The translations under genes were made by a program, and so were the position numbers. Under the pieces are notes generated by a model. That model saw only the letters and a program-made list of their open reading frames with translations, did no database searches and was not told the DNA's origin. From contig CBDUXS010000001.1 of NCBI GenBank assembly GCA_965371255.1, positions 1-30,861 on the forward strand: a stretch of DNA of 30,861 nucleotides, written 5' to 3'. The DNA comes from an uncultured bacterium. Lineage in GTDB: Bacteria; Gemmatimonadota; Gemmatimonadetes; Palauibacterales; Palauibacteraceae. Below, piece after piece: positions 682-26,265 of the stretch (the stretch's first letter is position 1; each line of letters starts with the position of its first letter).

Positions 682-1071
682 CTACGGCTTCTTGCGGGTA
701 GTCGCCACGTAGCTGCCGTCGCGCAATTTCAGCAGCACGAGCCGGTTGACGGATCCGCACACGGTGCACAGACCGGACTCCCCATCGAGCACCTTGAACT
801 CCGTCGGGCAGCTGCATTCCTCGCACACCGCATGAACGACCGACCACGGTTCGGCCTTCCTGGCTCCGCTGCGCGCAAGGAGCACTCCCATGGCGATTGG
901 CGGAAGCCCCGACAGGGGACACACGCCGCCGTCACAGCACTCACCGAAATCCAGACAGACGACCTGGTTTCCGTCCGGCAGGTTGGCGTGAGCGTGGTGC
1001 AAACGTGAGGGGGTGACCACGAACTGAATGTCCTTCCTGCAGTGCGAGCAGTAGGTCGTGTGCTTGTCCAC
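682..1071 (-). CDS. Cys-rich hypothetical protein (129 aa, three CxxC pairs, 11 Cys), probable metal/Zn-binding
   Basis: 3' part of ORF 682..1188. GGAGGT RBS precedes GTG at 1071, 14 nt after the apbE stop. Motifs CSHC, CEECSC, CTVC and HHAH. Confidence 0.75.
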   Translation of the reverse strand: MDKHTTYCSHCRKDIQFVVTPSRLHHAHANLPDGNQVVCLDFGECCDGGVCPLSGLPPIAMGVLLARSGARKAEPWSVVHAVCEECSCPTEFKVLDGESGLCTVCGSVNRLVLLKLRDGSYVATTRKKP

Positions 1072-1085
1072 TTCTACCTCCAGAA

Positions 1086-2072
1086 TCAAGCCATGTGAAC
1101 GAGTTCCGCCCGGCCGTTCAGTATCTTGCGAGCCGTCTCGTGTGGTGCTCCGAAACAGGCGGTCGCAGCGGCATCCGCCGCCAGGCATGAGTCAGCCGCC
1201 ACCGTGACCGTGTGACCCTTTGTGCGACGGGGCTCTCCGGTTTCCGGGTTGAGGATGTGGTGATAGCGCCTCCCGTTGAAATCGAAGAAGGCCTCGTAGT
1301 CCCCCGATGTTGCAATCGCTCGATCGGACAGGCTCATTGTTGCGAGAAAAGACGACGGGTCTGTGGGCGAGCGGACACCGGCCTCCCAGGGTTCGCCGTC
1401 CTCGGCACGCCCCAGGGCATACAGATCGCCGCCGACATTCACGAGCCCGTCCCGAATCCCAGTGTCGCGAAGGGCTGCCACCGCCAGATCAACAGCGTGA
1501 CCCTTGGCGATCCCGCCCAGGTCAATCGCCAGATCCTGCTCATGAAACCGGACGACGTCGCGGTCCTGCCGGAGACCGACTTCGAGGTTCTCGTACAACC
1601 GGCGATCTGCGTACCGGCGGGTTTCGACCAGTGGAGGGGGTGTCCTTCGATTCCCCACGTCCCACAACTGGACGGCGTTTCCGAGGCACGGATCGAAGCG
1701 GCCTCCGCTCCATGAGGCCCACTGAATGCCGGCCCGCAGCACGGCAGCTGTCTCGGCGTGCACCAGCACCGGCTCACGCGCGGCCAGTTGGTTCGCCCTC
1801 CCCACATCCGAGGAGACGTCAAACCGGGTCATCGTGCGATCGACCCAGAACAGGCACTCGGCTGCGGCTTCGATGGCCGCCTGGGCGAGTCGTTCGTCCT
1901 CGTGCACGACGACGATCTCGGCGATCGAACCCATCACAGGAATGGTGCGGCGAACGAGTCGACGATGCGTCGCCCAGCGGACCAGCGGCAGTGAGACGAC
2001 GAACGCGCCGATCCCCAGCGAAATCAATTCCCGGCGAGATGGTAGCCAGATGCCGTTGTCATGCATTGTCAT
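1086..2072 (-). CDS. apbE: FAD:protein FMN transferase (ApbE/Ftp)
   Basis: Motifs VMGS, FDPCLG, IDLGGIAKGHAVD, VNVGGDL, IATSGDYE, YHHILNPETG, ADAAATA. Start at 2072 or 2066. N-terminal SRRELI followed by a hydrophobic segment. Confidence 0.95.
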   Translation of the reverse strand: MTMHDNGIWLPSRRELISLGIGAFVVSLPLVRWATHRRLVRRTIPVMGSIAEIVVVHEDERLAQAAIEAAAECLFWVDRTMTRFDVSSDVGRANQLAAREPVLVHAETAAVLRAGIQWASWSGGRFDPCLGNAVQLWDVGNRRTPPPLVETRRYADRRLYENLEVGLRQDRDVVRFHEQDLAIDLGGIAKGHAVDLAVAALRDTGIRDGLVNVGGDLYALGRAEDGEPWEAGVRSPTDPSSFLATMSLSDRAIATSGDYEAFFDFNGRRYHHILNPETGEPRRTKGHTVTVAADSCLAADAAATACFGAPHETARKILNGRAELVHMA

Positions 2073-2205
2073 CAGAGGACTCCCATTCCTCGCAGATGCC
2101 CGTACATCCGGCACAGTTGCCGGTACAATCCGATCTATGCCGAACGAATCCGAAAGCTACGAACAGAACGGCCATGATCACGATTCCCGTCACAGCTTCA
2201 ATCAT
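2059..2205 (-). CDS. 48-aa membrane microprotein with CX3CX2CX3C motif
   Basis: MIEAVTGIVIMAVLFVAFGFVRHRSDCTGNCAGCTGICEEWESSDDNA. Its ATG overlaps the rnfA stop (ATGA) and its 3' end overlaps the apbE start, filling the gap exactly. Hidden at the end of track ORF 2059..2901. Confidence 0.75.
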   Translation of the reverse strand: MIEAVTGIVIMAVLFVAFGFVRHRSDCTGNCAGCTGICEEWESSDDNA

Positions 2206-2780
2206 GTGCTGAACAGGCCGGCGAAACCCATGAATGCCAGCGACAGCGAACCGGCGATGATCAGGACCAGGCCCATGCCCCTGGCAAGCGCCGGCACGGT
2301 AGCCAATTCGGTCTGTTCCCGGATCGAGGCCATGAGCACGAGCGCCAGTGTGAGGCCGAGGCCCGCGCCGATGGCGAAGAACAGACCCTCGAGGAACCCG
2401 TAGCCGCGATTCGTCTGGAAAATCGCGAGGCCCAGGATCGCGCAGTTCGTCGTAATGAGCGGCAGGAAGATCCCCAGTTCGCGGAACAGGGTCGGGCTCA
2501 CCTTCTTGATCGTGATTTCCACGATCTGGACCAGCGACGCGATGACGACGATGAACGAGATCAGGCGCAGGTAGGGGGCCGCCGCCAGTACGAACGTGTT
2601 GAGCACCCAGGCCGTCATCGAGGTAAGCACGAGGACGAAGATGTTCGCCGCTCCCATCCGCAGCGCCGTATCGACCCGGGCGGACACGCCCATGAACGGG
2701 CAAAGCCCGAGGAACAGCGCCAGCGTGAAGTTGTTGACCAGCATCGCCGACACCAGAATCCATACGAGGTCGCCCATCAT
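2202..2780 (-). CDS. rnfA: Rnf complex subunit A
   Basis: LVNNFTLALFLGLCPFMG, FLPLITTNCAILG, GSLSLAFMGF. ATG at 2780 overlaps the rnfE stop; the track ORF is over-extended upstream. Confidence 0.95.
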   Translation of the reverse strand: MMGDLVWILVSAMLVNNFTLALFLGLCPFMGVSARVDTALRMGAANIFVLVLTSMTAWVLNTFVLAAAPYLRLISFIVVIASLVQIVEITIKKVSPTLFRELGIFLPLITTNCAILGLAIFQTNRGYGFLEGLFFAIGAGLGLTLALVLMASIREQTELATVPALARGMGLVLIIAGSLSLAFMGFAGLFST

Positions 2781-3439
2781 GCGTGCCTCCCCGTCTTTGA
2801 ACCCACGCCGTGCGGCCACTCCCGGACCACCGTCCGTTCCTGACGACGACTCGCCAGCCAGCCGAAGGCCAGCAGGATGAATCCGAGCGTGAAAAACCCA
2901 CCGGGCGGCAGGATCATGATGATCCATGGCTCGTAAGAACCTCCGAACAGCGGAAAGCCCAGCAAGCTCCCGTACCCGAGGATTTCTCGGATTCCGCCGA
3001 TCATCAGCAGGGCGATGATGAATCCGGTGCCGGTGCCGACGGCGTCCAGCAGGGCTCGGGCCACGGGACGCTTCGAGGCGAACGCCTCCTGCCGCCCGAG
3101 AATCATGCAGTTGACGACGATGAGCGCGATGAAAGCGCCGAGCGCCTTGTGAATATCCGGTACGACAGCGGCCAGTACCATGTCGGCGACCGTGACGAAG
3201 GTCGCGATGATCAGGATGTAGGCGCTGATACGGACCTCGTGCGGGATGACATTCTTGAGCATCGAAACGAACAGGCTCGAGCCGACCAGAACGAAGAACG
3301 TCGCCAGGCCCATCGCCAGGCTGTTCGCCACAGTGTTCGTCACCGCGAGAGCCGGGCACAGCCCGAGCAACTGGACGAGTACGGGATTCTCACGCCAGAC
3401 GCCGCGCGCGAGGTCGTAAGTGGGCGTGGTGGCTCTCAT
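2777..3439 (-). CDS. rnfE: Rnf complex subunit E
   Basis: WRENPVLVQLLGLCPALAVT, ALIVVNCMILGRQEAFASK, MILPPGGFF. Confidence 0.95.
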   Translation of the reverse strand: MRATTPTYDLARGVWRENPVLVQLLGLCPALAVTNTVANSLAMGLATFFVLVGSSLFVSMLKNVIPHEVRISAYILIIATFVTVADMVLAAVVPDIHKALGAFIALIVVNCMILGRQEAFASKRPVARALLDAVGTGTGFIIALLMIGGIREILGYGSLLGFPLFGGSYEPWIIMILPPGGFFTLGFILLAFGWLASRRQERTVVREWPHGVGSKTGRHA

Positions 3440-4104
3440 GGCGTGTTGGTCCGCACCGCGGCAGCCGGGCGCGAAGCTTCGTACGCGAGCAGATAGGGCT
3501 CCAGCTCTTCGAGTCGGTGGTTGATGATCTTGATGACCGTCCGGGACGAGATCGTGGCGCCGGTAATCATGTCGACCTCGTGGGCGTCGCCGGTCCCGCG
3601 GCCGGCCTTCACGCCGACCAGCGGTGGAACCGGATCGGAGAACCCAGCCACGAATCCCGTGTCCTTCTCGATCTTGTCACCGAGCCCCGGTGTTTCCTTG
3701 CTCTCGAGGACCTTCATGCCCCGGACCTGGCCGCTTGTCGGATCGAACGCGAACAGAAGGCGGATCATGTCCTGGAATCCGGGCTCGCCGCCCGCAATCG
3801 CGAATCCGGTCGGGCGATCGCTCGCATCGTAGCCGACGTAGACGCGGTCCAGACCCACCGAATCCACGGCCGCGGGGAGGTCCGAGGTAAAACCGCCATC
3901 GACGAGGAACAGGGTTTCATAGCGCTCGGGACTCCCGAGAACTTCCTGGATCGCCTCACGGAGGACCTCTGCGCGATGGGCCGTGATTTTCGGCTCGGCC
4001 CAGCTGTTTACGAGGACGAGCAGCAGGCCGGCGAGCGCTCCGGCAACGGTCAGCGTCCCCATGAGTCGGGCGGCAGGCTGATCGGTCGTGTGTAGTTCGG
4101 TCAC
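3436..4104 (-). CDS. rnfG: Rnf complex subunit G (FMN-binding)
   Basis: N-terminal TM helix, ETPGLGDKI, FMNylation motif ITGATISS. GTG at 4104 overlaps the rnfD stop. Confidence 0.93.
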   Translation of the reverse strand: MTELHTTDQPAARLMGTLTVAGALAGLLLVLVNSWAEPKITAHRAEVLREAIQEVLGSPERYETLFLVDGGFTSDLPAAVDSVGLDRVYVGYDASDRPTGFAIAGGEPGFQDMIRLLFAFDPTSGQVRGMKVLESKETPGLGDKIEKDTGFVAGFSDPVPPLVGVKAGRGTGDAHEVDMITGATISSRTVIKIINHRLEELEPYLLAYEASRPAAAVRTNTP

Positions 4105-5105
4105 GCCGACACCTCCTCGCGGCCATGGCCGAACACGCGCGGCTGTGTCACCCGGTTGATGAACGGAACGAGCGCGTTCATCAGCAGGATGGCGTACATC
4201 ACGCCTTCCGGCAGGCCACCCCAGGTTCGAATCAACACCACGAGCACGCCGATCCCGATCCCGAATATCCATGCCCCGGCGTTCGTGACCGGAGATGTGA
4301 CCATGTCGGTAGCCATGTACATGGCACCCAGAATGAGGCCACCGGAGAACAGCATGAACAGCGGGCCCGGATAGCGTGATGCGTCGATCGCGTGGAGCAC
4401 CGCGGACAACGCGGCCACGGTCGCAAAGATGCTCGCCGGAATCCGCCAGTTCAGATAGTTCTTGAGCGCCAGGTAGCCGCCGCATGCGAGAATGAGCAGG
4501 CCGGCGGTCTCGCCCAGCGAGCCGCCGGTGCTGCCCAGCATCAGGCCGCCGATATCGGTGGGGATCGCATCGAACTTCCACAGACCCAGCGGCGTGGCGG
4601 CGGTCACCACGTCAGGCGCGTTCGCACTCAGGAGCGGCGGTGCGAAATTGTCACCTCGCAACTGGCCCCAGGACGCGTCCAACCCGGGCCAGGTCGTGAT
4701 CGCGATCGGAAACGCCGCCTGCAGAAATGCCCGTCCAATGAGCGCCGGGTTGAACACGTTCTGCCCCAACCCGCCGAACAGGAGCTTTCCGAATCCGATT
4801 CCGAAGGCTCCGCCGAGGAACGCCATCCACATCGGCATCCCGGCCGGAAGTATCAGGCCGAGCAACAGTCCCGTGATGACGGCCGAGCCGTCTCCGAGCG
4901 AATCCTGGCGGCCGACGGCCCTTTCCGTGAGCACGGCGCCCGCGGTGGCGGCCGCAATGACGAGCAGGGCGCTGGGGCCGGAGAAGTACGTGGCAGCGGC
5001 GACCACAGGGATGAGGCTGCCGACCACGGACCACATGATGCGGCGCGTCGTATCGGGCGCCGTGAGATGCGGCGGCGCCGTGAGTTCCAGCCTCACGCCG
5101 TTCAT
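4101..5105 (-). CDS. rnfD: Rnf complex subunit D
   Basis: PPHL, GSAVITGLLL, FGGLGQNVFNPALIGRAFL, TAATPL, GSLGET, FMATD-like YMATDMVTSP, YAILLMN. ATG at 5105 overlaps the rnfC stop. Confidence 0.95.
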   Translation of the reverse strand: MNGVRLELTAPPHLTAPDTTRRIMWSVVGSLIPVVAAATYFSGPSALLVIAAATAGAVLTERAVGRQDSLGDGSAVITGLLLGLILPAGMPMWMAFLGGAFGIGFGKLLFGGLGQNVFNPALIGRAFLQAAFPIAITTWPGLDASWGQLRGDNFAPPLLSANAPDVVTAATPLGLWKFDAIPTDIGGLMLGSTGGSLGETAGLLILACGGYLALKNYLNWRIPASIFATVAALSAVLHAIDASRYPGPLFMLFSGGLILGAMYMATDMVTSPVTNAGAWIFGIGIGVLVVLIRTWGGLPEGVMYAILLMNALVPFINRVTQPRVFGHGREEVSA

Positions 5106-6430
5106 GCCGCTTGCTCCTTCTGCCGGCGCAGCCCGGCCTTTCCGAGCGCGAACAACTGCGACAGAGGGAGGTTGGACGGACACACGTACGAGCAGCACCC
5201 GCACAGCATGCAGTCCAAGAGGCCGGCCCGCTCCATGTCCTCGTACCGGCCGGCCTGGGCCAGCACCCCAAGCTGCTGGGGATTCAAGAACACCGGGCAC
5301 GAGTCCAGACAGCGCCCGCACTTGATGCACGGATAGGATTCCCGGGGCTTCGTCTCGGCGTGCGTGAGCGCCACGATTCCGGTCGTGCCCTTGATCACGG
5401 GCGCGTCCAGGTCCGGCTGGCAACCGCCCATCATGGGTCCGCCCAGCACGATCTCGGCCACGTCATCCGTCAGGCCGCCGCAGTAGTCCAGTACGTCGCG
5501 GAGCTTCGTTCCGACGGGCACGATGAGGTTCGACGGGTTCCGCACCGCCGGCCCTGTCACGCTGACGACCCGCTCGATCAACGGGAAGCCCGTTTCGAAT
5601 ACTTCGGCGATCGCGGCGATCGAGCCCACGTTCTGCACGACGGTCCCAACGTGGGCCGGGAGTTTGCCCGACGGCACCTCGCGGCCGGTAACCGTTTTGA
5701 TCAGCATCTTTTCCGCGCCTTGCGGATACTTCACGGTCAGGGGAAGGATCGTAATGTCCAGATCTACCGGCCGGGCTGCCTCGAGCGCCGCAATCGCGTC
5801 CGGTTTGTTCTTCTCGACGCCGATTACGACGCGTTCGACACCGAGCGTATGCATCATCACCCGGATTCCGAAGTGCACGCGCTCGGGGTACTCGACCATC
5901 ACGCGATGATCGGTCGTCAGGTAGGGCTCGCATTCGGCCCCATTCACCAGCAGCAGGTTTACCTTTACGCCCTCGGGCGGAAGCAACTTGACGTGCGTGG
6001 GAAACGCCGCGCCACCGAGGCCCACCACACCGGCCTGCTGCACTGCGGCAACGACCTCATCCGGGGACAGGCCTTCCCAATGCGGCACGATCCGGGGCCG
6101 CGGGATTTGCGGCGAGTAGGGCTCCACGGCGATCCGCACTGCCGTGGCCACACTACCATCCGGGTGGGGCCACAGATCAATGTCGGTCACGCGTCCGGCC
6201 GCCGATGTGTGGATAGGGACCGAGATGAACCCGTCGGCCTCCGCAATCATGTCACCCCGCTCAACCCGGTCGCCCTGCTTCACGAGCAAGCGGGCGGACT
6301 TTCCGGCGTGCTGGCGCAACGGCAGAACGATGTCTTCCGGAAACGGCATGCGGCGGATCGGAACCCCTGCTGTAAGGTGCTTGGAGTCCGGGGGATGGAC
6401 ACCATGCCGAAACGTCGGGCGGCGCAACAT
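5102..6430 (-). CDS. rnfC: Rnf complex subunit C (NADH/FMN site, 2x[4Fe-4S])
   Basis: GVHPP, AGVVGLGGAAFPTHVK, NGAECEPYLTTD, KYPQGAEKMLI, GGPMMG, CIKCGRCLDSCP, CMLCGCCSYVCP. ATG at 6430 lies 5 nt after the PFOR stop. Confidence 0.95.
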   Translation of the reverse strand: MLRRPTFRHGVHPPDSKHLTAGVPIRRMPFPEDIVLPLRQHAGKSARLLVKQGDRVERGDMIAEADGFISVPIHTSAAGRVTDIDLWPHPDGSVATAVRIAVEPYSPQIPRPRIVPHWEGLSPDEVVAAVQQAGVVGLGGAAFPTHVKLLPPEGVKVNLLLVNGAECEPYLTTDHRVMVEYPERVHFGIRVMMHTLGVERVVIGVEKNKPDAIAALEAARPVDLDITILPLTVKYPQGAEKMLIKTVTGREVPSGKLPAHVGTVVQNVGSIAAIAEVFETGFPLIERVVSVTGPAVRNPSNLIVPVGTKLRDVLDYCGGLTDDVAEIVLGGPMMGGCQPDLDAPVIKGTTGIVALTHAETKPRESYPCIKCGRCLDSCPVFLNPQQLGVLAQAGRYEDMERAGLLDCMLCGCCSYVCPSNLPLSQLFALGKAGLRRQKEQAA

Positions 6431-6435
6431 GGCAG

Positions 6436-9400
6436 TCAGTTGAACGGCCGGGCGCGCTCGATCCACTTATCCAGGTCCTTCTCTCGCGGGTTGAGCGGCG
6501 TCCCGGGATGGATGATCGCGGCCGGGCATTTCTCCGCGGCCTTGACGAGTTGCGCGAATGTGCCGGCGGCAGCGTCCTTGATATACGCCTGCTTGTTGTC
6601 GTCGTAGGCGAACAGCTTCTTGTTGATGTCGAGGCAGTCATCGCAGGTCGTGCACAGAGCCGTCTCGATGTACGGCGCCATCGCGAGATCCTCGTCATCG
6701 TCCTCCGTTTCAGGCTCGGCGGCGGGCGCTGTCGCCACAGCCGCCTGCTCGGTCACTGAGGCGGTTCCGGTCGAGTCCCCTGCGAACGGCTCGACCAGGT
6801 CGGCGCCACGCGCAGAATTGAACGACACCGGCGGTGCGCTTGCTGCTTCTCTCAGCAGGTCCTCGATCGTCCGATTTCCGTCCCCTGCACCAAGCAGTCC
6901 TGCCGCGAGCCGCCTCGCTACGAGCTTCGGATAGTCCGCCTTCAGCTCCTTAATTCGGGATTCGTAGTCCGAGCGAATTGCCTCCGCCCGGATCTCGAAT
7001 TCGGCCTCAAGGTGAGCTGTATCGAGCCCGGCCAGTTCCTTGAGCTGGGACCAGAACAGCTGGCGGTCCTCGGCCAGCTCGACGATCTCGCTGGACACGC
7101 TCAGGCGGTCGAGGCGCCGATCGTCCCGCAGTGTGTAGACGAATGGTGCATGGTCCTCGCGTTCGTCGGCCGACAGGTCGAAGTACTCATGGAACGGCAA
7201 GTAGTCTTCGTCCGCATCATCCGGAATCGGCCTGAAGTGTTTCCTGAATCGGCCTTCCGTGGCGGCCCAGTCGGCGATCGTGAGCGGGAGGTCCATCGTC
7301 CGCTCGGCCCCCTCGTCGTCCACGTAGGCAAGCTCGTAGCTGGGCCATGCGTCCTCGACGTCGGGATTCCCCTCCAGATCGAGACAGTCGGCGACCGTGT
7401 CCCCAGCGTCGGGATCGTACACCAGAAACGGAAACGCCCGGCTCTCGAGCGCCAGCTTGGCGGAGTGCGGCGCCCACTCGTCGGCGACACCGTGCTCGAC
7501 CGGACAGGGCGTGTAGATGTTGAACACGGCCGGGCGTCGGGAGTTGAGGCCGCGCAGGATGCCCTGCATCATGTGCGAGGCCGACGCCTGCGACGTTTGC
7601 AGCACGTACGCGCCCCTGTGGGCCAGGGCGATGAGGGCCATCTCCTTGCGGGTCTCTTCTTTCCCGTGCTGCACCTGCCCGTAGGCCGCCATGTCGGCGA
7701 TCTGCCCCGTGAATCCGCTCGTGCACGACTGCCCGCCTGTGTTGGAATACACCTGCGTGTCGAGGACGACGACGCGAATCGGTTTTCCGGACGCGAGCAA
7801 CCGCGACAGGTTCTGGAATCCGATGTCGAGCATCGCACCGTCGCCGCCCATCGCCAGGATCGGCGGACACAGGTGGAATTCGTCGTCGTCGAACTGCGTC
7901 CAGTCGAAGGCTCCGAAGAACGGTTCGTGCTCGTCGGCGTCGTACTCGTCGCGAGCCAACAACTCGGCCCGACGGATGCTGATGAAGTTGTCCGCCATTT
8001 TCCGCATGTGGCCCTCGAACAGGCCGATCGCGATCGACGGAGCGTCCTGGAACAGATGGTTGACCCAAGGGAAAGGGTACGGATTGTAGGGGTACGTGCT
8101 TCCCCATACCGACGAACAGCCCGTGGAGTTGCTGATCCCCATCGGCGCGCGTCCCTGCCCGCCGGGCCCTTCCACGTAGCGCCAGCGCAGGTCCTTCAGC
8201 TCATCGATCGCGCGGTTCAACAGGCGCAACCGTTCACCCGCGGCCGCATCCAGTGAGACGTCCACGTGGTCACCTTCCGCCTGACTCAGGCCCGCCACGT
8301 CGGCGTGGGACCCGACCAACTCGCGCGCCTTCCTGTCGAGCCGCTCAAGCAGGTCATCGAGGCGTGCGACCAGCGCTTCCACCCGCGGGATCATCAGCCC
8401 CTCGATCGTCGAAACGAGGATATGCACGGCCGTCTTCTCTCCGCAGCCCATGCATGCACCGTCACCGCCCACCATTGAACCGTAGTTTTTTTTCTTCAGC
8501 AGAAGCGAGGAGAGCACACCAATGCCCTCGTCGAGGTTTGAGATGTTGACGTAGCGGTCGTCCGTGTCGGGCAGGTTCTCCCACAGCCGCCAGTTACGGC
8601 GCAACTGCGCGACATTTTCGTCGTCCTGGCGAACCGTGATCAGCGCACCTTCCGGACACACGTCCACGCAGATGTTGCAGCCCTTGCAGGCCATCGGATT
8701 GACCGTGATGGACAGCAGGCCCCCCGTGCCCTTTTCGCGCGACTCGGGCAGGCCGAAGAACGGGCGCGTCCGTGCCAGGGGGAATCCGGCGATGTGCGGA
8801 AACACCGCGGCGAACTCCTCATCCACGGCCTTCCGGCGCTCGGCGTCCCAGTCGAGTTTCTCGATGACGTTCTGATACGCGGAGGTGAGCACGTCACCAA
8901 ACGTCGTAAACGGAACGCCCTGCATGATCTTGCGGGATTCCCGCCCGAGATGCCCGGAGATCTGCGTCAGGCGATTGAACGCGCGACCGTTTGACGCCGT
9001 CGCGATCGCCGCGTCGATCACCTCTTCCACAGTGTTTACCACCCCGGGGATCGCGGCGTCCGGGCACTGAATCCAGCACTGGCTGCACCCGGTGCACTTA
9101 TCCGCGATGAACTCGGGGATCTCGAACCGGATGTTCGTCATGTCCCGCACGCTGCTCGTGGCGGCCGGGATGGCGCTGATCGCCGCGAACGGGTCCGCGA
9201 TCACGTCTTCACCGGTCGTAGCGCAGAAAGCGCACACCTGCTCCCAGAAGCGCCCTGGATTCCCGACTCCGGGCTGCGCCTGCGGCACGTTCAGTCGACT
9301 CGGCAGCTCGGGCATCGCGTGCTCGCCGGGTTCGTCCGTTCCCACGTCTCCGTGCGGCACCGGCGTCAACTCGTCGAATCCGCGCCGAATGACGCGCACG

Positions 9401-11451: not shown

Positions 11452-12299
11452 CTTGCTTCACTTTCAACCAGTTCCAGATCCGGAAAGACTTGCGCCCCAT
11501 CTACCCAGACGATCGCGTTCGTCGGGCAACGGGCGATCGCGGCCGGGTTCTCCAGTTCGATCCGCTCGTAGTCAATCACTGCGAGGCCCGAGCGCATCTC
11601 GATCAGCCCGGGATCCGCGTCCGCCACGCAGCGGCTGCAGGCGTTGCAGGCGACCGAGCAGACCGATGTTGCCGCCTCGCCGTCGAGCAGGTTTCGGCAC
11701 TGGACGATCAGGTGGTGGTGTTCCGGCATCAGCACGAACAGGTCGAGCGGGCAGGCGACCACGCAGTCATTGCACGCAGTACAGTTTTCCGGAATGACTA
11801 CCGGCAAGCCGAAGGACGTCATGCGGATCGCCTCGAACGTGCACGCGACCGCGCAGTCGGCCAGACCGACACAACCCCACGCGCATCCCTTCCCGCCTCC
11901 GCTGACGGACACGGCCGCGGCACAGCTCTCGAGGCCATAGTACTCGGCCTTCTGAACTGCTACATCAGATCCGCCGGCGCACAACAGACGGGCAACCCGC
12001 TTTTCCACTTCGCCCGCCTCCACTCCGAGCGTTTCCGCAAATTCCTCGACCTCGAACTCGCCCATCACCGTGCACTCGGCCGGGACCACGTCACCGTGGA
12101 TCGCAGCCTCCGCGAACGCCCGGCAGCCGACGTAGCCGCAGGCTCCGCAGTTCACGCTGGGCAGGATGTCGGACAGCAGATCGATCCGTGGATCTTCCCA
12201 TACCTTGAGCTTCCAGTGGGCCAGCGCGATCAACATTCCGAAGGTGAGGCCTACCCCACCCAGAATCGCTACCGGCGTCAGAAACGAGGCGACATCCAC
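11445..12299 (-). CDS. rnfB: Rnf complex subunit B (membrane-anchored polyferredoxin)
   Basis: N-terminal TM helix, EDPR, LPSVNCGACGYVGC, CAWGCVGLADCAVAC, CTACNDCVVACP. The terminal ferredoxin domain is partly degenerate. Confidence 0.93.
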   Translation of the reverse strand: MDVASFLTPVAILGGVGLTFGMLIALAHWKLKVWEDPRIDLLSDILPSVNCGACGYVGCRAFAEAAIHGDVVPAECTVMGEFEVEEFAETLGVEAGEVEKRVARLLCAGGSDVAVQKAEYYGLESCAAAVSVSGGGKGCAWGCVGLADCAVACTFEAIRMTSFGLPVVIPENCTACNDCVVACPLDLFVLMPEHHHLIVQCRNLLDGEAATSVCSVACNACSRCVADADPGLIEMRSGLAVIDYERIELENPAAIARCPTNAIVWVDGAQVFPDLELVESEARC

Positions 12300-12311
12300 G
12301 GATCGATCCCC

Positions 12312-13334
12312 TCAGGCGCCGGGTGCGAGGTCGGCCTGCTGCAGGAGCCAGCCTGCCAGGCGGTCTATGGGATCATCGTCTTTCCGTCCCTCCTGTCCGG
12401 CGACGACCGACGACGCGGGAGCCGCGGAATTCGATGGCCGGGTGCTCGCCAGTTCGCCGAGATGTGCGAGATCCTCCGTCTGACGGAAGCTCGACAGGGA
12501 TCCGATGGCATGCAGGGTCCCGGGATCAGGGAGTTCACCGACCGAGAGCCGATCGGCGTAGACGGCACCGGCATCCGGATCATGAACGAAGGGGATCAGC
12601 CCTTCGGAACCCACGGCGGCGACGGCGGGCCCGGAAAACGAGGCCACGCGGGCGAGGTCATCGGCCTCGTGGGTCTGTACGACGAGCACGTGCGGCGACA
12701 CCAGGCGCGCGAGCGGCGCAGGCGCCGCCGTGCCGCGCACCACGAGAACGATCTTTTGCGCCCCGTCGAGAAACTCTGCCAGGGCAGCCGTGTCGAGGTC
12801 GCTGCCATTCACATCGATGAACAGCGGTGGCGCCACGGCCCGTTCGCCGCGACTCCACAGCGAAAAGGCGTAGCCGTGAGGAAGGCTTCCGGGATCCAGT
12901 GCCGAGCCGTGGCCATCCAGCAACGGCGCCACCTGCCGAATCACTCCGAACACGCGCCCAACCTCGGCCAGGGTCTTCGCCGCAGTGTCCCGCAGATCTC
13001 CCCCCGACGGGACACGGGCGCACAACAGATCCGTGCCCCTGGATTCGGCAGCCGTGAGCGTTTCGAGGGCCCGCTCAACATGACGCAGGTCATCCGTCTC
13101 GAGAGTCTCGGGTGGCGCAAGAAGGGCCGAAAAGAGCCTCGCATCGACGTGACCGGCACCGAACGCTCCGAGTTCCGCGGCTACGAGCTCCTCGGGCTCG
13201 CCACGGGATGTCCCGTGCCGGACGAGAAATGCCCGCAAGTCCTCGATCGCCCGGGCAAGCGACGAGTGGAAGGCCTCAGATGGCGCCTGCATCGCCGCGA
13301 GCGCCTCCGTCATCAGCGAATCTTCAGACGGCAT
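12312..13334 (-). CDS. Hypothetical protein; degenerate paralog of the PFOR C-terminal (TPP-binding) region
   Basis: Intact 340-aa ORF overlapping the korB stop. Collinear motif matches to the neighbouring PFOR, e.g. PFVHDPDAG vs FLVYDPDAG. Lacks GDG, YSNTGGQ and the cluster Cys. Confidence 0.8.
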   Translation of the reverse strand: MPSEDSLMTEALAAMQAPSEAFHSSLARAIEDLRAFLVRHGTSRGEPEELVAAELGAFGAGHVDARLFSALLAPPETLETDDLRHVERALETLTAAESRGTDLLCARVPSGGDLRDTAAKTLAEVGRVFGVIRQVAPLLDGHGSALDPGSLPHGYAFSLWSRGERAVAPPLFIDVNGSDLDTAALAEFLDGAQKIVLVVRGTAAPAPLARLVSPHVLVVQTHEADDLARVASFSGPAVAAVGSEGLIPFVHDPDAGAVYADRLSVGELPDPGTLHAIGSLSSFRQTEDLAHLGELASTRPSNSAAPASSVVAGQEGRKDDDPIDRLAGWLLQQADLAPGA

Positions 13335-14274
13335 GGCGGTCGAGCTCCTCGTTCAGGATGGCGACTTTCTCGGCCGCGGTCTTTGCCGGCGCGCGCCGCA
13401 TCTGCTCGTAAATCGGCAAAGACTCGTTTCGGTACAGAATCCCGATGCGAACCTTGTCCTCGTCCTCCGCCAGTCGTCGGGCCTCGTCAAGGTCGGACGG
13501 ATCATGCCGCACACGGTCCTGGTAGCGAGACTCGAGCGCCTTGATGTCCAACCCATCCTCGTGGACAAGGAGCTGCACGGAATCCGGGTTTTTGGGGGCG
13601 TCGCCGAACATGTCCGGCGTAAAGTGCGGACATCGCTGAAGGACGCGCACGAAAGAAAACCCCGGATGGTGATATGCCGCCTGCAGGGTTGCAAACAGGT
13701 GAGCCGGGATCCACTCGGCCGTCTGGGCCACGAAAGAGGCGTTCGTGATTCCGAGCGAGGCGACCACCGGGTTGATCGGCGGTAACCAGCTTCCCTGCGG
13801 TTGCGTGTTGCTCACGTATCCCTGAGGCGTGGTCGGGGACGTTTGCTTCTTGGTCATTCCGTAGATCTGGTTATCGAGCAGCAGCGCGACCATGCCCACG
13901 TTGTAGCGAATCGCGTGCACCCAGTGCCCGGCTCCGATCGAGACGCAGTCCCCGTCCCCCATCACGACGAACACGCTCAGGTCCGGCCGGTGGAGCTTGA
14001 CACCCGTGGCGATCGGGAGGGCCCGGCCGTGGATGCCGTGGAACCCGTACGTGCTCATATAGTGGGGAAACCGGCTCGAACAACCGATGCCGGACACAAA
14101 GACCGTCTTCTCGGGAGGGAGGTTTTCCTCGGCGAGCAGTCGCTGCATGGAGGCAAGGACCGAATGGTCACCACAGCCCGAGCACCAGCGGGCCTGCGCC
14201 CCTTCGTAATCGGACATGCCGAACTCGCGATCGTACTCTCCCGCAATCTGTAACAGCGAACAGGCCATGCTCAC
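13324..14274 (-). CDS. korB: 2-oxoacid:ferredoxin oxidoreductase beta subunit (TPP-binding); substrate not certain
   Basis: WCSGCGD, SGIGCSSR, HGIHGRALPIATG, MGDGD, DNQIYGMTKKQTSPT, QRCP. GTG start overlaps the korA stop with GGAGG upstream. Confidence 0.9.
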   Translation of the reverse strand: MSMACSLLQIAGEYDREFGMSDYEGAQARWCSGCGDHSVLASMQRLLAEENLPPEKTVFVSGIGCSSRFPHYMSTYGFHGIHGRALPIATGVKLHRPDLSVFVVMGDGDCVSIGAGHWVHAIRYNVGMVALLLDNQIYGMTKKQTSPTTPQGYVSNTQPQGSWLPPINPVVASLGITNASFVAQTAEWIPAHLFATLQAAYHHPGFSFVRVLQRCPHFTPDMFGDAPKNPDSVQLLVHEDGLDIKALESRYQDRVRHDPSDLDEARRLAEDEDKVRIGILYRNESLPIYEQMRRAPAKTAAEKVAILNEELDRHAV

Positions 14275-16208
14275 TCCGAGCCTCCTTCGGACAGGTTGGA
14301 GCGAATCACATCGAGGATCACCCCCGGACGCAGCGGCTCGCCGAGCACGCGGGTCCAGCAGTCCACGTCACACAAGGTCTGGGCCCGCAGGAGCCAGGTG
14401 AGCTGCCCGCGGCGGCGGTTTTCATCGGTGATGTATGGCATGTCCGGATCGTCGCTGTAGTTGATCTCGATGGTCATCACTTTCTTGAATCGGCCAAAAA
14501 TCTCCTTCAGGCCGGGCTCGAGCGGAGACAGGAAGCGCAGGTGAAGGCTGGAAACAGACAGGCCTTCGTCGTTTGCCCGGTCGACTGCCTCCTCGATCGC
14601 GCCCTTCGTGGATCCCCAGCCGACAAGCAGTAGGTCACCGGATTCGTCGCCGTTCACGGTTGGCGGCACGAGCGAGCGCTGCAGCACGGCCAACTTGCGG
14701 CTTCGCATGGCACTGCCCCGCTGATTGACCTCCGACGTGTAGGCGACTTTGCTCCCCTCGTCGTGCGCGAGCCCCGTCACTGTGTGCATGCCTCCCGGCT
14801 GACCCGGGATGAACCGACGGGACAGGCCCGTGCGGGAATCCCAGTCATAGGGCCTGAGGTTGTCGGGAATCGGGCTCTGGTCTGGGGCGGGCGCTTGCCA
14901 GGCAGTGTCCAGTTCGGGGCGGTGGAAGGGCTGGACACCAGTCGCCAGATTCGTATCCGACAGGACCATGACGAGCGTGCGGAAAGTCTCGGCAATCCGC
15001 CGCGCCGTAATCATCACGTGAAAACACTCTTCTATCGTGGCCGGCGCGATGATCACATGAGGGGCATCGCCCGGCTGCCCGAACATTGCGGCGAGCAGGT
15101 CGGACTGCTCGATCTTCGTTGGGAGGCCGGTGCTGGGGCCTCCACGTTGCACGTTTACGAGGACGAGCGGGATCTCGGTCATCACGGCGAGACCGAGGAA
15201 CTCCGTCTTGAGTGCCAGTCCGGGTCCGGACGTGATCGTGAATGCAACCTTGCCGCTGTATGAAGCCCCCAGCGCTACGCCAGCGGCGGCGATTTCATCT
15301 TCAGCCTGGTGAATGATCCCACCGTAATGCTGGAAGACGCTGCCGAGATGATGAGATACCGAACTGGCAGGAGTGATGGGATACATCGCGGCGAGCTCCA
15401 TGCCCGACGCGATCGCGCCCATCGCGATGGCCTGGTTGCCGTTCATCACGACCATCGCCTCGTCCGTCACGGCTGTGGGTACGCGGATACGAAAGTCGAG
15501 GTTGTTGCGAGCCCAGTCGATGCCCGCATCCAGCATGAGGAAGTTCCGATCGATGATCGCCTGGCTCTTTTTCTTGAACACGAAGGCGATCTGCTTGCGG
15601 ACCAGCTCGGCGTCTCGCCCGTAGATCTCCGTCAGCATGCCGAGGGCAAACATGTTCTTGCCCAGTGTCGGATCCTCGACCAACTGTGCGCACACCTCGT
15701 GCATCGGGACCTCAATGATCCGATAACTCGTATTTGAGAGCTCTTCGAGGGCCGCACGCCACTCGGCCTGAATGTCCTCGTCCGGGTGGTCCGCCCACCG
15801 ATTCTCGAGCAGGATGACCGCGTCGTGTTCGAGCGCCCCGAGGCGATGCCGATACAACAGGACCTGCTCGTTGAACGCTATTACGAGGTTGGTACGATCT
15901 CCCCAGTTCGTTACCGGCCCGGAACCGAGGCGGATGCGGTTTCCGCTGGCAGCGGTGGGATTTCGCGGGGGAGGCTGCACCTCGGAGGGGATGATTTCTA
16001 CCGTCCACACCCCGTTTCCCATCTTGGCGGACACGGTGCCGAACAACTGACCACAGCGCTGCGCCCCCTCACCGGGGTCGGACACGACCTCAACGGTGTG
16101 GGAAGAGGTTTCCAGCGTTTTCGACTCGGGCGCAGCGGGAGCATCCAATTCGAGCATTGGAAGTCTAGTCATCATGCCAGATTTCGCCGTGTTTCGCATT
16201 CGCGTCAT
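14271..16208 (-). CDS. korA: 2-oxoacid:acceptor oxidoreductase alpha subunit (gamma-alpha fusion)
   Basis: MNGNQAIAMG, YPITP, QAEDEIAA, TSGPGLALKTE, VQRGGPSTGLPTK-EQSD, VGWGST. The exact start is uncertain (16208, 16199, 16175 or 16157). Confidence 0.9.
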   Translation of the reverse strand: MTRMRNTAKSGMMTRLPMLELDAPAAPESKTLETSSHTVEVVSDPGEGAQRCGQLFGTVSAKMGNGVWTVEIIPSEVQPPPRNPTAASGNRIRLGSGPVTNWGDRTNLVIAFNEQVLLYRHRLGALEHDAVILLENRWADHPDEDIQAEWRAALEELSNTSYRIIEVPMHEVCAQLVEDPTLGKNMFALGMLTEIYGRDAELVRKQIAFVFKKKSQAIIDRNFLMLDAGIDWARNNLDFRIRVPTAVTDEAMVVMNGNQAIAMGAIASGMELAAMYPITPASSVSHHLGSVFQHYGGIIHQAEDEIAAAGVALGASYSGKVAFTITSGPGLALKTEFLGLAVMTEIPLVLVNVQRGGPSTGLPTKIEQSDLLAAMFGQPGDAPHVIIAPATIEECFHVMITARRIAETFRTLVMVLSDTNLATGVQPFHRPELDTAWQAPAPDQSPIPDNLRPYDWDSRTGLSRRFIPGQPGGMHTVTGLAHDEGSKVAYTSEVNQRGSAMRSRKLAVLQRSLVPPTVNGDESGDLLLVGWGSTKGAIEEAVDRANDEGLSVSSLHLRFLSPLEPGLKEIFGRFKKVMTIEINYSDDPDMPYITDENRRRGQLTWLLRAQTLCDVDCWTRVLGEPLRPGVILDVIRSNLSEGGSE

Positions 16209-16211
16209 CGG

Positions 16212-16233
16212 GCGCTGAGCAAAAACTCAGCGC
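16212..16233 (-). promoter_or_regulatory. Perfect 8-bp hairpin in the predicted 5' UTR of the korA-rnf operon
   Basis: GCGCTGAG-CAAAAA-CTCAGCGC, ending 3 nt upstream of the first possible korA ATG. Confidence 0.45.
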
Positions 16234-16323
16234 ACCTATATCAGCGCGTTTCCGGACATGTTTCGGATAAGCAGACCGTCGGCCCGAAAACCACCGTCAA
16301 AAGCCGCCTTGAAACGATAATAG

Positions 16324-16352
16324 ATAATAGGATCTACTTATCTAAGTTACAA
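16324..16352 (-). promoter_or_regulatory. sigma70-type promoter for the kor/por/rnf operon, overlapped by a palindrome
   Basis: Minus strand TTGTAA (16352-16347), 17-nt spacer, TATTAT (16329-16324), in an AT-rich patch. Inverted repeat TAGATAA-N10-TTATCTA at 16321-16344. Confidence 0.65.
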
Positions 16353-17946: not shown

Positions 17947-17951
17947 TCCCC

Positions 17952-26021: not shown

Positions 26022-26265
26022 GCGTGACATCAGCCAGGCGCTCTCGAATCACATCGACGAAGTCGCCGACGAGGTCGATCCGCTCTTCGTCCTCGGGCCT
26101 AAGCAGAACCCGGAACCGATTCTCCACCCCGATTACGAGCGCGATGCGCTGCAGGGAATCGAGGTCCAGATCCTCACGCACGTGCATCTCGGGAGACACG
26201 ATGCGCTCGACCTCGAGCTCGTCGAGCACCGCCCGGATTCCGTCGAGGATCTGCTCGTCCGTCAT
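26014..26265 (-). CDS. Acyl carrier protein
   Basis: 83 aa, acidic, EDLDLDSL phosphopantetheinylation motif; overlaps both neighbours. Confidence 0.92.
   Translation of the reverse strand: MTDEQILDGIRAVLDELEVERIVSPEMHVREDLDLDSLQRIALVIGVENRFRVLLRPEDEERIDLVGDFVDVIRERLADVTHD

What the first reader, a model, noticed from the sequence alone, without database searches (positions are those of the whole stretch)
682..16352. 13-gene operon wiring two 2-oxoacid oxidoreductases directly into Rnf, with PFOR inserted between rnfB and rnfC
Seen: korA-korB-pseudoPFOR-rnfB-PFOR-rnfC-D-G-E-A-microprotein-apbE-Cys protein, with every junction overlapping or <=14 nt apart and one promoter upstream. Established: the rnfBCDGEA order is known; PFOR and KOR make or use reduced ferredoxin; Rnf couples Fd:NAD+ transfer to ion translocation. 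No free ferredoxin gene is in the window. Inference: a dedicated 2-oxoacid-to-Rnf energy-conserving module, possibly a physical supercomplex, run oxidatively (anoxic pyruvate/2-oxoglutarate oxidation) or in reverse for carboxylation.
Basis: partly seen in the sequence, partly recalled or inferred. Interest (0 to 1): 0.75.

Follow-up and report, generated by a model that had tools for sequence, protein, structure and literature searches.

The report
Rnf ion-pump operon with built-in oxoacid oxidoreductases
A Gemmatimonadota bacterium encodes, in one tightly packed 13-gene block, the Rnf membrane ion pump, a two-subunit 2-oxoacid oxidoreductase and an oversized pyruvate-type oxidoreductase that carries its own ferredoxin on a flexible tether. 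The core of this layout recurs in many phyla, was mentioned in print only once in passing, and has never been tested biochemically.

Summary
Thirteen minus-strand genes (682-16208) are separated by -14 to +14 nt. The only larger non-coding gap, 195 nt upstream of korA, holds the two promoter-like sites.

The gene order is korA, korB, a 340-aa protein, rnfB, a 1671-aa PFOR, rnfC-D-G-E-A, a 48-aa TM+4-Cys peptide, apbE and a Cys-rich protein.
- The PFOR keeps its TPP motif and all 12 cluster cysteines. It ends in a roughly 40-residue disordered linker plus a single-[4Fe-4S] ferredoxin domain.
- The 340-aa protein is a degenerate PFOR domain-VI/beta-like fold without cofactor motifs, so the label "pseudoPFOR" is modestly supported.

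Conservation:
- The whole block is conserved in all 14 Gemmatimonadota loci fetched, and its markers occur in 52 of 301 sampled species of the phylum.
- The core (giant PFOR::Fd next to rnfC-D-G-E-A and the Cys peptide) recurs in MAGs labelled Bacteroidota, Gammaproteobacteria, Myxococcota, Acidobacteriota and Hydrogenedentota.

The best reading is a dedicated 2-oxoacid/NAD(H) module that works through Rnf with a tethered ferredoxin. Its direction and any supercomplex are untested. The carriers also have ODH, E1 dehydrogenases and haem-copper oxidases, so the block is accessory.

Dmytrenko et al. 2014 noted PFOR between rnfB2 and rnfC2 in one sentence. This scan has also flagged the layout before on other DNA (44 notes, at least 33 genomes).

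The parts
16317..16352 (-). Two overlapping sigma70-like promoter matches (TTGTAA-17-TATTAT and TAGATA-16-TATTAT) in the 195-nt gap upstream of korA
   Evidence: These are consensus matches only, and their number is not above the shuffled expectation. They sit in the only non-coding gap longer than 14 nt in the block.
16213..16236 (-). 9-bp GC-rich hairpin in the leader, ending 4 nt before the korA ATG
   Evidence: The leader as a whole does not fold unusually well (z -1.48). Function unknown.
14271..16208 (-). korA-like gene: fused gamma+alpha subunit of a two-subunit 2-oxoacid:acceptor oxidoreductase (645 aa)
   Evidence: TIGR03710 at 508 bits (cut-off 482.75), plus POR and POR_N. The best solved relative is Magnetococcus 2-oxoglutarate:Fd oxidoreductase 6N2N, E 6e-70.
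13324..14274 (-). korB-like gene: beta subunit with the TPP site and one [4Fe-4S] (316 aa)
   Evidence: TPP_enzyme_C at 98 bits and PFO_beta_C. The GDG...N TPP motif and four Cys are visible in the translation. The GTG start follows a GGAGG and overlaps the korA stop by 4 nt.
12312..13334 (-). 340-aa degenerate PFOR domain-VI/beta-like protein without a TPP motif or cluster cysteines (pseudo-subunit)
   Evidence: No Pfam or NCBIfam hit. 417 representatives at 50% identity. AF2 pLDDT 90. hhalign E 2e-4 to PFOR residues 1152-1375. Foldseek top hits are PFORs. VIA-align Z 7.9 to 1B0P residues 813-1171.
11445..12299 (-). rnfB, the long polyferredoxin type (284 aa)
   Evidence: PF04060 plus Fer4 domains. 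A. woodii RnfB 9ERI E 4e-53 and C. tetanomorphum 7ZC6 E 1e-46.
6436..11451 (-). Giant single-chain PFOR (1671 aa) with family-specific insertions and a C-terminal tethered ferredoxin
   Evidence: Domains. Alignment to 6CIN and 1B0P shows insertions near residues 391-480, 802-907 and 1012-1104 and an extension beyond about 1415. The TPP motif and 12 cluster Cys are invariant in 31 homologues.
6436..6690 (-). C-terminal single-[4Fe-4S] ferredoxin domain of the PFOR (about residues 1589-1671), preceded by a disordered linker (about residues 1548-1586, window 6691-6810)
   Evidence: Fer4_13. C1600, C1603, C1606 and C1642 are invariant. AF2 pLDDT is below 50 in the linker and 89-97 in the domain. 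The best fold match is D. africanus ferredoxin I 1FXR, TM 0.84, rmsd 0.9 A. Conserved in other phyla.
5102..6430 (-). rnfC (442 aa from ATG 6430)
   Evidence: TIGR01945 at 520 bits, with RnfC_N, Complex1_51K, SLBB and 2x Fer4. The start was chosen by the length of homologues.
4101..5105 (-). rnfD
   Evidence: PF03116, E 2e-100.
3436..4104 (-). rnfG (FMN-binding; a TGAT motif is present)
   Evidence: PF04205; the motif was read in the translation.
2777..3439 (-). rnfE
   Evidence: PF02508, E 3e-63.
2202..2780 (-). rnfA
   Evidence: PF02508, E 3e-53.
2059..2205 (-). 48-aa peptide with one TM helix followed by CX3CX2CX3C
   Evidence: PF12669 below threshold. A peptide of the same build follows rnfA directly in about 50 of 59 loci, other phyla included.
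1086..2072 (-). apbE (FAD:protein FMN transferase), presumably the flavinylase of RnfG and RnfD
   Evidence: PF02424, E 1e-68. The start at ATG 2072 is supported by homologue alignments.
682..1071 (-). Cys-rich 129-aa protein of unknown function, apparently specific to Gemmatimonadota
   Evidence: No Pfam hit. The GTG start follows a GGAGG. Conserved after apbE in many Gemmatimonadota loci. The nearest Atlas clusters are Gemmatimonadota hypotheticals.

Best explanation
The block is most likely one operon. It encodes a self-contained redox module that links 2-oxoacid/acyl-CoA conversion to the NAD+/NADH pool through the ion-translocating Rnf complex, without relying on a soluble ferredoxin.

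Shown:
- The giant PFOR is catalytically intact by sequence. It has the TPP motif, three [4Fe-4S] sites, and the conserved Thr, Arg and Glu of the pyruvate/TPP site.
- It carries a fourth cluster in a small ferredoxin domain at the end of a roughly 40-residue disordered linker.

Inferred:
- This tethered ferredoxin shuttles electrons between the PFOR's distal cluster and the polyferredoxin RnfB. From there they pass through Rnf to NAD+ at RnfC, coupled to Na+ or H+ translocation.
- KorAB, a two-subunit OFOR closest to 2-oxoglutarate:Fd oxidoreductases, lacks a ferredoxin subunit. It probably feeds the same acceptor, and the cofactor-less domain-VI-like protein may act as an adaptor or scaffold.
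- ApbE flavinylates RnfG and RnfD, and the TM+4-Cys peptide probably helps to mature the Rnf metal centres, as NqrM does for Nqr.

Run oxidatively, the net reaction equals that of pyruvate or 2-oxoglutarate dehydrogenase plus ion pumping. Run in reverse, the ion gradient and NADH would drive pyruvate or 2-oxoglutarate synthesis. I put oxidative use under oxygen limitation at about 50%, reductive use at about 30%, and condition-dependent use of both directions at about 20%.
For: - Gene identities.
- Tight coupling of all junctions.
- The 13-gene order holds in 14 of 14 fetched Gemmatimonadota loci at 64-85% PFOR identity.
- unk340 and the PFOR tail each occur in 52 of 301 sampled genomes of the phylum, in almost the same genomes.
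- PFOR is followed at once by rnfC in 56 of 59 loci, and by rnfA in 47 of 49 loci with enough downstream flank, including MAGs labelled Bacteroidota, Gammaproteobacteria, Myxococcota, Acidobacteriota and Hydrogenedentota.
- The tethered ferredoxin is conserved across these phyla. It is modelled as a confident domain behind a disordered linker and matches single-cluster ferredoxins, best of all D. africanus Fd I.
- Catalytic motifs are invariant.
- No free ferredoxin gene is in the window, and none was recognised in the assembled 1.46 Mb.
- The small Cys peptide after rnfA is conserved across phyla.
- In print, Dmytrenko et al. 2014 infer pyruvate as an electron donor for an Rnf from the same gene order.
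Against: - There are no expression data: no RNA run was listed. Internal promoters cannot be excluded, and the promoter call is a bare consensus match.
- Substrate specificity of both OFORs is inferred from homology only. The PFOR scores far below the NifJ equivalog cut-off (396 against 911 bits).
- Carriers of the block also have SucA-type ODH, several E1 dehydrogenases and haem-copper oxidases. The module is therefore not the main route for these reactions in air, and its direction cannot be read from the genome.
- The own genome is incomplete, so a soluble ferredoxin may exist.
- There is no evidence for any protein-protein contact.
Confidence: 0.7

Rival explanations
1. The enzymes form a stable membrane-bound supercomplex. 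PFOR (and KorAB, through the pseudo-subunit) docks on RnfB/RnfC, and the tethered ferredoxin works as a swinging arm inside it. The whole would be an ion-pumping pyruvate/2-oxoglutarate:NAD+ oxidoreductase.
For: - PFOR is placed between rnfB and rnfC with translational coupling (-7 and +5 nt), and this holds across phyla.
- Insertions specific to this PFOR family are as conserved as the catalytic core.
- A tether of about 40 disordered residues resembles carrier-domain arms.
- A cofactor-less domain-VI paralogue occurs only where korAB is present: 44 of 47 loci against 0 of 14.
Against: No interaction was tested and no complex model could be made with these tools. A tether also makes sense without stable docking, because it raises the local ferredoxin concentration. 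Gene order alone does not show physical contact.
Confidence: 0.3
2. Loose metabolic co-regulation only. The PFOR and its ferredoxin domain mainly serve other ferredoxin consumers, such as an FNR-type reductase, a hydrogenase or biosynthetic enzymes. Rnf merely balances the ferredoxin and NADH pools.
For: In other phyla an FNR-type flavoenzyme follows the Cys peptide (NAD_binding_1 and FAD_binding_6 in L084 and L099), so Rnf is not the only plausible electron outlet. Relatives carry one or two further OFORs elsewhere in the genome.
Against: The near-invariant placement of the PFOR inside the rnf genes (56 of 59 loci) is more than co-regulation needs. No alternative acceptor is encoded in this block.
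Confidence: 0.15
3. The module runs mainly in reverse in these oxygen-respiring bacteria. Rnf uses the ion gradient to push electrons from NADH onto the tethered ferredoxin, so that PFOR and KorAB act as pyruvate and 2-oxoglutarate synthases. This would assimilate acetyl-CoA and succinyl-CoA with CO2.
For: - Carriers already have ODH, E1 dehydrogenases and haem-copper oxidases for the oxidative reactions.
- Isocitrate lyase was found in only 2 of 5 carrier genomes checked.
- Reverse use of Rnf to feed PFOR and KFOR has been proposed for Ignavibacterium album (PMC3362086).
Against: No ATP-citrate lyase signal was found, but that search's control rang nowhere, so it says nothing. Nothing in the sequences fixes a direction. 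Hosts of oxic-anoxic interfaces could equally use the module oxidatively when oxygen is scarce.
Confidence: 0.3

Closest known systems
rnf2 operon (rnfB2-PFOR-rnfC2DGEA) of the Solemya velum gill symbiont (Dmytrenko et al. 2014, BMC Genomics, PMC4287430)
   Same: PFOR genes lie between rnfB and rnfC of an rnfBCDGEA-type operon, and the authors infer that pyruvate donates electrons to that Rnf.
   Different: It was noted in a single sentence, with no domain analysis or biochemistry. The present block adds korAB, the pseudo-domain-VI protein, apbE and a Cys-rich protein. I did not examine the symbiont's sequence here.
Rnf complexes of Acetobacterium woodii (PDB 9ERI) and Clostridium tetanomorphum (7ZC6)
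   Same: All six subunits are present. RnfB is of the same long polyferredoxin type (E 4e-53 and 1e-46). The expected reaction is ferredoxin:NAD+ oxidoreduction coupled to ion translocation.
   Different: Those complexes take electrons from a free ferredoxin, and their gene order is rnfCDGEAB (my knowledge). Here the order is rnfB...CDGEA with an oxidoreductase inserted and a ferredoxin fused to it. The hosts here carry aerobic respiration genes.
Single-chain homodimeric PFOR (D. africanus 1B0P, M. thermoacetica 6CIN; NifJ, TIGR02176) with D. africanus ferredoxin I (1FXR)
   Same: The domain order, TPP motif and three [4Fe-4S] sites are the same. The appended domain superposes on D. africanus Fd I (TM 0.84). 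That Fd I is a partner of that PFOR is from my knowledge.
   Different: This protein is 1671 aa, against about 1170-1230. It has three conserved insertions, an extra beta-rich and helical extension and a covalently tethered ferredoxin. It scores 396 bits against an equivalog cut-off of 911.
Two-subunit 2-oxoglutarate:ferredoxin oxidoreductases (Magnetococcus marinus OGOR 6N2N; the KOR type of Mycobacterium tuberculosis)
   Same: Both have a fused gamma-alpha subunit plus a beta subunit and no delta ferredoxin subunit (TIGR03710 above its cut-off; 6N2N E 6e-70).
   Different: Here the genes are translationally coupled to a pseudo-beta protein and to rnfB. The substrate is not established, and the beta subunit scores below the TIGR02177 cut-off (234.5 against 261.9).
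nqr operon with apbE and nqrM (Na+-NQR maturation)
   Same: Both have a flavin transferase gene and a small one-helix, four-Cys protein encoded at the end of a homologous ion-pump operon. The role of NqrM is from my knowledge.
   Different: The 48-aa peptide has no significant match to NqrM, and only a sub-threshold match to FeoB_associated PF12669. Its role is an analogy and was not tested.

Membership tests
Rnf complex (RnfABCDGE) | All six subunit genes are present | tested here: met
   RnfB (PF04060, TIGR01944), RnfC (TIGR01945, 520 bits), RnfD (PF03116), RnfG (PF04205), and RnfE and RnfA (PF02508).
Rnf complex (RnfABCDGE) | Covalent-FMN sites in RnfG and RnfD, and a flavin transferase | tested here: met
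   A TGAT motif was read in RnfG and a T-A-A-T-P-L motif in RnfD. ApbE is in the operon (PF02424, E 1e-68). Flavinylation itself was not tested.
Rnf complex (RnfABCDGE) | Ferredoxin:NAD+ oxidoreductase activity coupled to Na+ or H+ translocation | not testable with these tools
   Needs membrane biochemistry.
Single-chain PFOR (NifJ/Por, TIGR02176) | Domain order I-II-III-V-VI with a TPP motif and three [4Fe-4S] sites | tested here: met
   POR_N, PFOR_II, POR, 2x Fer4 and TPP_enzyme_C in order. GDG...NTGGQ and 12 Cys are invariant in 31 homologues.
Single-chain PFOR (NifJ/Por, TIGR02176) | Scores above the curated equivalog cut-off | tested here: not met
   396.2 bits against 911.35. The length is 1671 aa, with insertions and an extra ferredoxin domain.
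Single-chain PFOR (NifJ/Por, TIGR02176) | Pyruvate as substrate | tested here: inconclusive
   The YPITPST and AAR segments and the Glu that align to the 6CIN substrate/TPP site are conserved. Assigning these residues to pyruvate binding is from my knowledge. No assay was done.
Two-subunit 2-oxoacid:acceptor oxidoreductase (OAFO/KorAB type) | The alpha (gamma-alpha fusion) subunit scores above the family cut-off | tested here: met
   TIGR03710 at 508 bits against 482.75.
Two-subunit 2-oxoacid:acceptor oxidoreductase (OAFO/KorAB type) | The beta subunit scores above the family cut-off | tested here: not met
   TIGR02177 at 234.5 bits against 261.9. Pfam TPP_enzyme_C and PFO_beta_C do pass their own cut-offs.
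Two-subunit 2-oxoacid:acceptor oxidoreductase (OAFO/KorAB type) | 2-oxoglutarate specificity | not tested
   Only the nearest solved relative is an OGOR (6N2N).
Rnf-embedded giant PFOR operon (rnfB-PFOR::Fd-rnfCDGEA) | PFOR lies directly upstream of rnfC, with rnfB adjacent | tested here: met
   The junctions are -7 and +5 nt. The same holds in 56 of 59 (rnfC) and 55 of 65 (rnfB) comparison loci.
Rnf-embedded giant PFOR operon (rnfB-PFOR::Fd-rnfCDGEA) | A C-terminal linker plus a single-cluster ferredoxin domain | tested here: met
Rnf-embedded giant PFOR operon (rnfB-PFOR::Fd-rnfCDGEA) | A TM+4-Cys peptide directly after rnfA | tested here: met
   Window 2059-2205; present in about 50 of 59 loci.
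Rnf-embedded giant PFOR operon (rnfB-PFOR::Fd-rnfCDGEA) | An FNR-type flavoenzyme at the operon end, as in the versions from other phyla | tested here: not met
   Here ApbE and a Cys-rich protein follow. FNR-type genes follow in L084 and L099.
OFOR beta subunit / PFOR domain VI (for the 340-aa protein) | The PP-domain fold of TPP enzymes | tested here: met
   VIA-align Z 7.9 over 193 residues at rmsd 5.9 A to 1B0P residues 813-1171. Foldseek top hits are PFORs at E 3e-3. hhalign E 2e-4, probability 47%. All three signals are modest.
OFOR beta subunit / PFOR domain VI (for the 340-aa protein) | The GDG...N TPP/Mg motif and the cluster cysteines | tested here: not met
   The hhalign alignment shows the TPP loop deleted and GDG replaced. 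No Cys is among the conserved columns of 77 homologues.
NqrM / FeoB-associated Cys-rich membrane peptides (for the 48-aa peptide) | A significant profile match | tested here: not met
   PF12669 at 23.8 bits against 27. There was no NqrM (PF04400) hit at E 0.01 or better.

The most novel reading that the evidence does not exclude
The block encodes a membrane supercomplex in which a PFOR, a KOR and Rnf are joined, with a ferredoxin domain as a swinging arm and a dead domain-VI paralogue as the adaptor for KorAB. It would act as an ion-pumping equivalent of the pyruvate and 2-oxoglutarate dehydrogenase complexes. Many bacteria otherwise regarded as aerobes would use it to conserve, or to invest, the energy gap between 2-oxoacids and NADH.
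Probability: 0.3. Interest if true: 0.85.

Novelty: new variant of a known kind. Interest (0 to 1): 0.65.

Why it matters
PFOR, KOR and Rnf are each well known, but they are thought to communicate through a diffusible ferredoxin pool, mainly in anaerobes. Here the oxidoreductase sits inside the pump's operon and carries its own ferredoxin.

This design is present in at least 540 species-representative genomes of several phyla, many of which also carry aerobic respiration genes. If it works as inferred, these bacteria can either gain an ion-motive bonus from pyruvate and 2-oxoglutarate oxidation that the classical dehydrogenase complexes waste, or use the membrane potential to carboxylate acyl-CoAs with NADH.

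Either would change carbon and energy budgets assumed for abundant sediment and soil groups such as Gemmatimonadota, Woeseiaceae and Saprospiraceae. It would also offer a compact, ferredoxin-independent module for study and for engineering.

The Gemmatimonadota form adds a second OFOR and a pseudo-subunit, which gives a natural test case for how extra donors are plugged into Rnf.

Tried and rejected
- RNA evidence: no RNA holder was listed for the 9.5-kb stretch or for the rnfB/PFOR junction.
- The profile of the 340-aa family found nothing meaningful among PDB sequences. The ESM Atlas feature search for it gave only low-score, unrelated clusters.
- The search for related loci with the 340-aa alignment failed, because no stretch was conserved enough.
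- Replacement hypothesis (the block substitutes for ODH or PDH): rejected. SucA-type ODH is found in 279 of 301 genomes of the phylum, including the own genome and nearly all carriers, and E1_dh genes are present.
- The ATP-citrate lyase search (PF16114) is uninformative, because its control rang nowhere.
- The AceE-type PDH E1 was not found in 5 genomes, but heterotetrameric E1 types are present.
- Literature searches on Gemmatimonadota, Rnf, PFOR, Woeseia and gene neighbourhood gave no description of the module. Biegel et al. 2011 could not be read.
- The leader hairpin before korA does not make the leader fold unusually well (z -1.48).
- The Cys-rich 129-aa protein has no family, even at E 1.

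Full report
**What is there.** The window (64% G+C) comes from a Gemmatimonadota MAG of 1.46 Mb in 260 contigs. Between 682 and 16208 the minus strand carries thirteen ORFs. Pfam and NCBIfam identify them as follows:
- a fused gamma-alpha subunit of a two-subunit 2-oxoacid:acceptor oxidoreductase (TIGR03710, 508 bits, cut-off 482.75);
- its beta subunit (TPP_enzyme_C, PFO_beta_C);
- a 340-aa protein with no family;
- RnfB;
- a 1671-aa PFOR-like protein;
- RnfC, RnfD, RnfG, RnfE and RnfA;
- a 48-aa peptide (one helix, then CX3CX2CX3C; PF12669 just below threshold);
- ApbE;
- a Cys-rich protein with no family.

I chose starts by Shine-Dalgarno sequences and by where homologues begin to align. 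With those starts the junctions are -4, -11, +12, -7, +5, -4, -4, -4, -4, -4, -14 and +14 nt.

The only larger gap is the 195 nt upstream of korA. It holds the two sigma70-like matches found in 17.5 kb. That number is no higher than in shuffled sequence, so the promoter is plausible but not shown.

Ferredoxin-type Cys motifs occur in the window only inside PFOR, RnfB and RnfC.

**The giant PFOR.** Against solved PFORs (6CIN, 1B0P) the protein aligns over domains I-III, V and VI. It has insertions near residues 391-480, 802-907 (between the two clusters of domain V) and 1012-1104, and an extension beyond about residue 1415.
- In 31 homologues the TPP motif (GGDG...YSNTGGQ), the eight Cys of domain V, the four Cys of the proximal cluster and the N-terminal substrate/TPP segments are invariant. 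The insertions are nearly as conserved as the core. The enzyme therefore looks active.
- It is not a canonical NifJ: it scores 396 bits against an equivalog cut-off of 911.
- The last 80 residues match Fer4_13, and four Cys (C1600, C1603, C1606, C1642) are invariant.
- An AlphaFold model of residues 1330-1671 gives a confident beta-rich domain and a long helix. A stretch of about 40 residues follows with pLDDT below 50, and then a confident small domain (pLDDT 89-97).
- The best structural match of that small domain is Desulfovibrio africanus ferredoxin I (1FXR, TM 0.84, rmsd 0.9 A over 58 residues). Other single-cluster ferredoxins follow.

The missing "free ferredoxin" is thus fused to the PFOR on a flexible leash.

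**The 340-aa protein.** It has 417 representatives at 50% identity, all of similar length, and folds with pLDDT 90. Three independent but modest signals place it with PFOR domain VI or the OFOR beta subunit:
- a BLASTP motif match to PFOR residues 1340-1364 (E 0.03);
- a profile-profile alignment of residues 125-281 to PFOR 1152-1375 (E 2e-4, probability 47%), with the TPP loop deleted;
- Foldseek top hits that are PFORs (E 3e-3), and a VIA-align Z of 7.9 to 1B0P residues 813-1171.

The GDG motif and the cluster cysteines are absent. "Pseudo-PFOR" is therefore a fair label, at moderate confidence. What the protein does is unknown.

**Conservation.** Within the phylum:
- The same order of all thirteen genes is found in 14 of 14 Gemmatimonadota loci that I fetched (PFOR identity 64-85%). 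ApbE has moved between rnfG and rnfE in a few of the Gemmatimonadota-type loci (L013, L048, L062).
- The 340-aa protein and the PFOR tail are each found in 52 of 301 sampled species. These are essentially the same genomes, spread over 31-32 of 127 genera. Neither was found in any of the 16 sampled genomes of one genus in the window's own family.
- The block is therefore a patchy accessory module.

Beyond the phylum:
- A scan of species-representative genomes found at least 540 relatives of the giant PFOR.
- The 80 loci kept include full-length relatives at about 50% identity in MAGs labelled Saprospiraceae, Flavobacteriaceae, Algoriphagus, Woeseia, Haliea, Lysobacterales, Myxococcota, Terriglobia, Thermoanaerobaculia and Hydrogenedentota.
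- Among loci with enough flank, rnfC follows the PFOR at once in 56 of 59, and rnfA lies downstream in 47 of 49.
- rnfB lies directly upstream in 47 of 49 loci of the Gemmatimonadota-like group and in 8 of 16 of the others. In two of the Bacteroidota-type loci (L086, L097) it lies after rnfA instead.
- korA and the 340-aa gene accompany the block in 38 of 41 and 44 of 47 loci of the first group, but in 1 of 13 and 0 of 14 of the second.
- The linker plus ferredoxin domain is conserved in all the distant members inspected.
- A one-helix, four-Cys peptide follows rnfA in about 50 of 59 loci.
- In Haliea-labelled and Terriglobia-labelled loci an FNR-type flavoenzyme comes next, where the Gemmatimonadota form has ApbE and the Cys-rich protein.

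**Physiological context.** RnfB is of the long polyferredoxin type found in A. woodii and C. tetanomorphum (9ERI E 4e-53, 7ZC6 E 1e-46). KorA is closest to the Magnetococcus 2-oxoglutarate:ferredoxin oxidoreductase (6N2N, E 6e-70).
- The own genome and four carriers checked have haem-copper oxidases and several E1 dehydrogenases.
- SucA-type ODH is present in 279 of 301 genomes of the phylum, nearly all carriers included. The block therefore does not replace the classical dehydrogenases.
- Isocitrate lyase was seen in 2 of 5 carriers. The ATP-citrate lyase search was uninformative.

The genome alone does not settle the direction.

**How it most likely works.** The chain has shown and inferred links.
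- Shown by sequence: an intact PFOR with a tethered single-cluster ferredoxin, a complete Rnf with its flavin transferase, and an intact two-subunit OFOR.
- Inferred: the tethered ferredoxin carries electrons between the PFOR and RnfB, and KorAB uses the same acceptor, perhaps positioned by the pseudo-subunit.
- Inferred by analogy with NqrM: the Cys peptide helps to mature Rnf.

Run forwards, the net reaction is that of PDH or ODH plus ion pumping. Run backwards, NADH and the membrane gradient would drive the carboxylation of acetyl-CoA or succinyl-CoA. A stable supercomplex is an attractive but untested extension.

**Comparison with what is known.**
- The rnfBCDGEA order is on record for Bacteroidetes and Chlorobi (Biegel et al. 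2011, as cited in PMC3534657).
- Dmytrenko et al. 2014 (PMC4287430) state that PFOR genes lie between rnfB2 and rnfC2 of the Solemya velum symbiont and suggest pyruvate as an electron donor for that Rnf. I found no other mention, and no biochemistry, in six further searches.
- Neither that passage nor any other text I retrieved describes the tethered ferredoxin, the insertions, the Cys peptide, or the korAB plus pseudo-subunit extension.
- This scan has flagged the same family before on other DNA (44 notes in at least 33 genomes), including a Gemmatimonadota version. One of those notes gave me the lead to the 2014 paper, which I then read myself.

**Verdict.** The block is real, conserved and coherent. 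It is a new variant of known systems (Rnf, PFOR, KOR) rather than a new kind. Its interest lies in its breadth, in its occurrence in bacteria with aerobic respiration genes, and in how directly the coupling model can be tested.

Noticed in passing
window 17263-21553 (minus strand): Putative porin (Porin_5), an 825-aa multihaem cytochrome with weak hits to cytochrome c7 and MtrC/MtrF domains, and a TPR protein lie directly upstream of the block. They could form an outer-membrane electron conduit.
   Followed up: no
window 23179-28282 (minus strand): A type III polyketide synthase (chalcone/stilbene synthase domains) sits with an AMP-binding (FAAL-like) enzyme and an FAD monooxygenase. It looks like an alkylresorcinol-type cluster.
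   Followed up: no
window 16404-17006 (minus strand): A cation-diffusion-facilitator transporter gene ends 195 nt upstream of korA.
   Followed up: no
window 16213-16236: A perfect 9-bp GC-rich hairpin ends 4 nt before the korA start codon and could mask the ribosome-binding region. The leader as a whole does not fold unusually well (z -1.48).
   Followed up: partly
L013, L048, L062: In these Gemmatimonadota-type loci apbE lies between rnfG and rnfE instead of after rnfA (in L013 together with the Cys peptide). The accessory genes move as units inside the operon.
   Followed up: partly
L003 (CP070815, 4.7-Mb genome): The block breaks off after a 58-aa remnant of rnfE; rnfA, the peptide and apbE are missing. 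A nosZ-nosDFY cluster lies directly upstream of korA. This may be a decaying copy.
   Followed up: no
L069 (MAG labelled Thermoanaerobaculia): A variant layout: korA, korB, a PFOR-like stretch of about 30% identity, the giant PFOR, rnfB, then another PFOR-like stretch of about 31% identity. It resembles the 'dead PFOR paralogue' variants noted earlier in this scan.
   Followed up: no
L049, L051, L052, L061, L037: Contigs with the Gemmatimonadota-type block (korAB and the 340-aa gene where the upstream flank is held; PFOR identity 62-66%) sit in MAGs labelled Acidobacteriota, Planctomycetaceae, Phycisphaera, Rokubacteria or Thermoanaerobaculia. Either they were mis-binned or the block was transferred.
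   Followed up: no
G000 as a whole: The assembly has 1.46 Mb at a stated completeness of 85%, while relatives have 2.4-4.7 Mb. The completeness figure may flatter it, so absences in this genome carry little weight.
   Followed up: no
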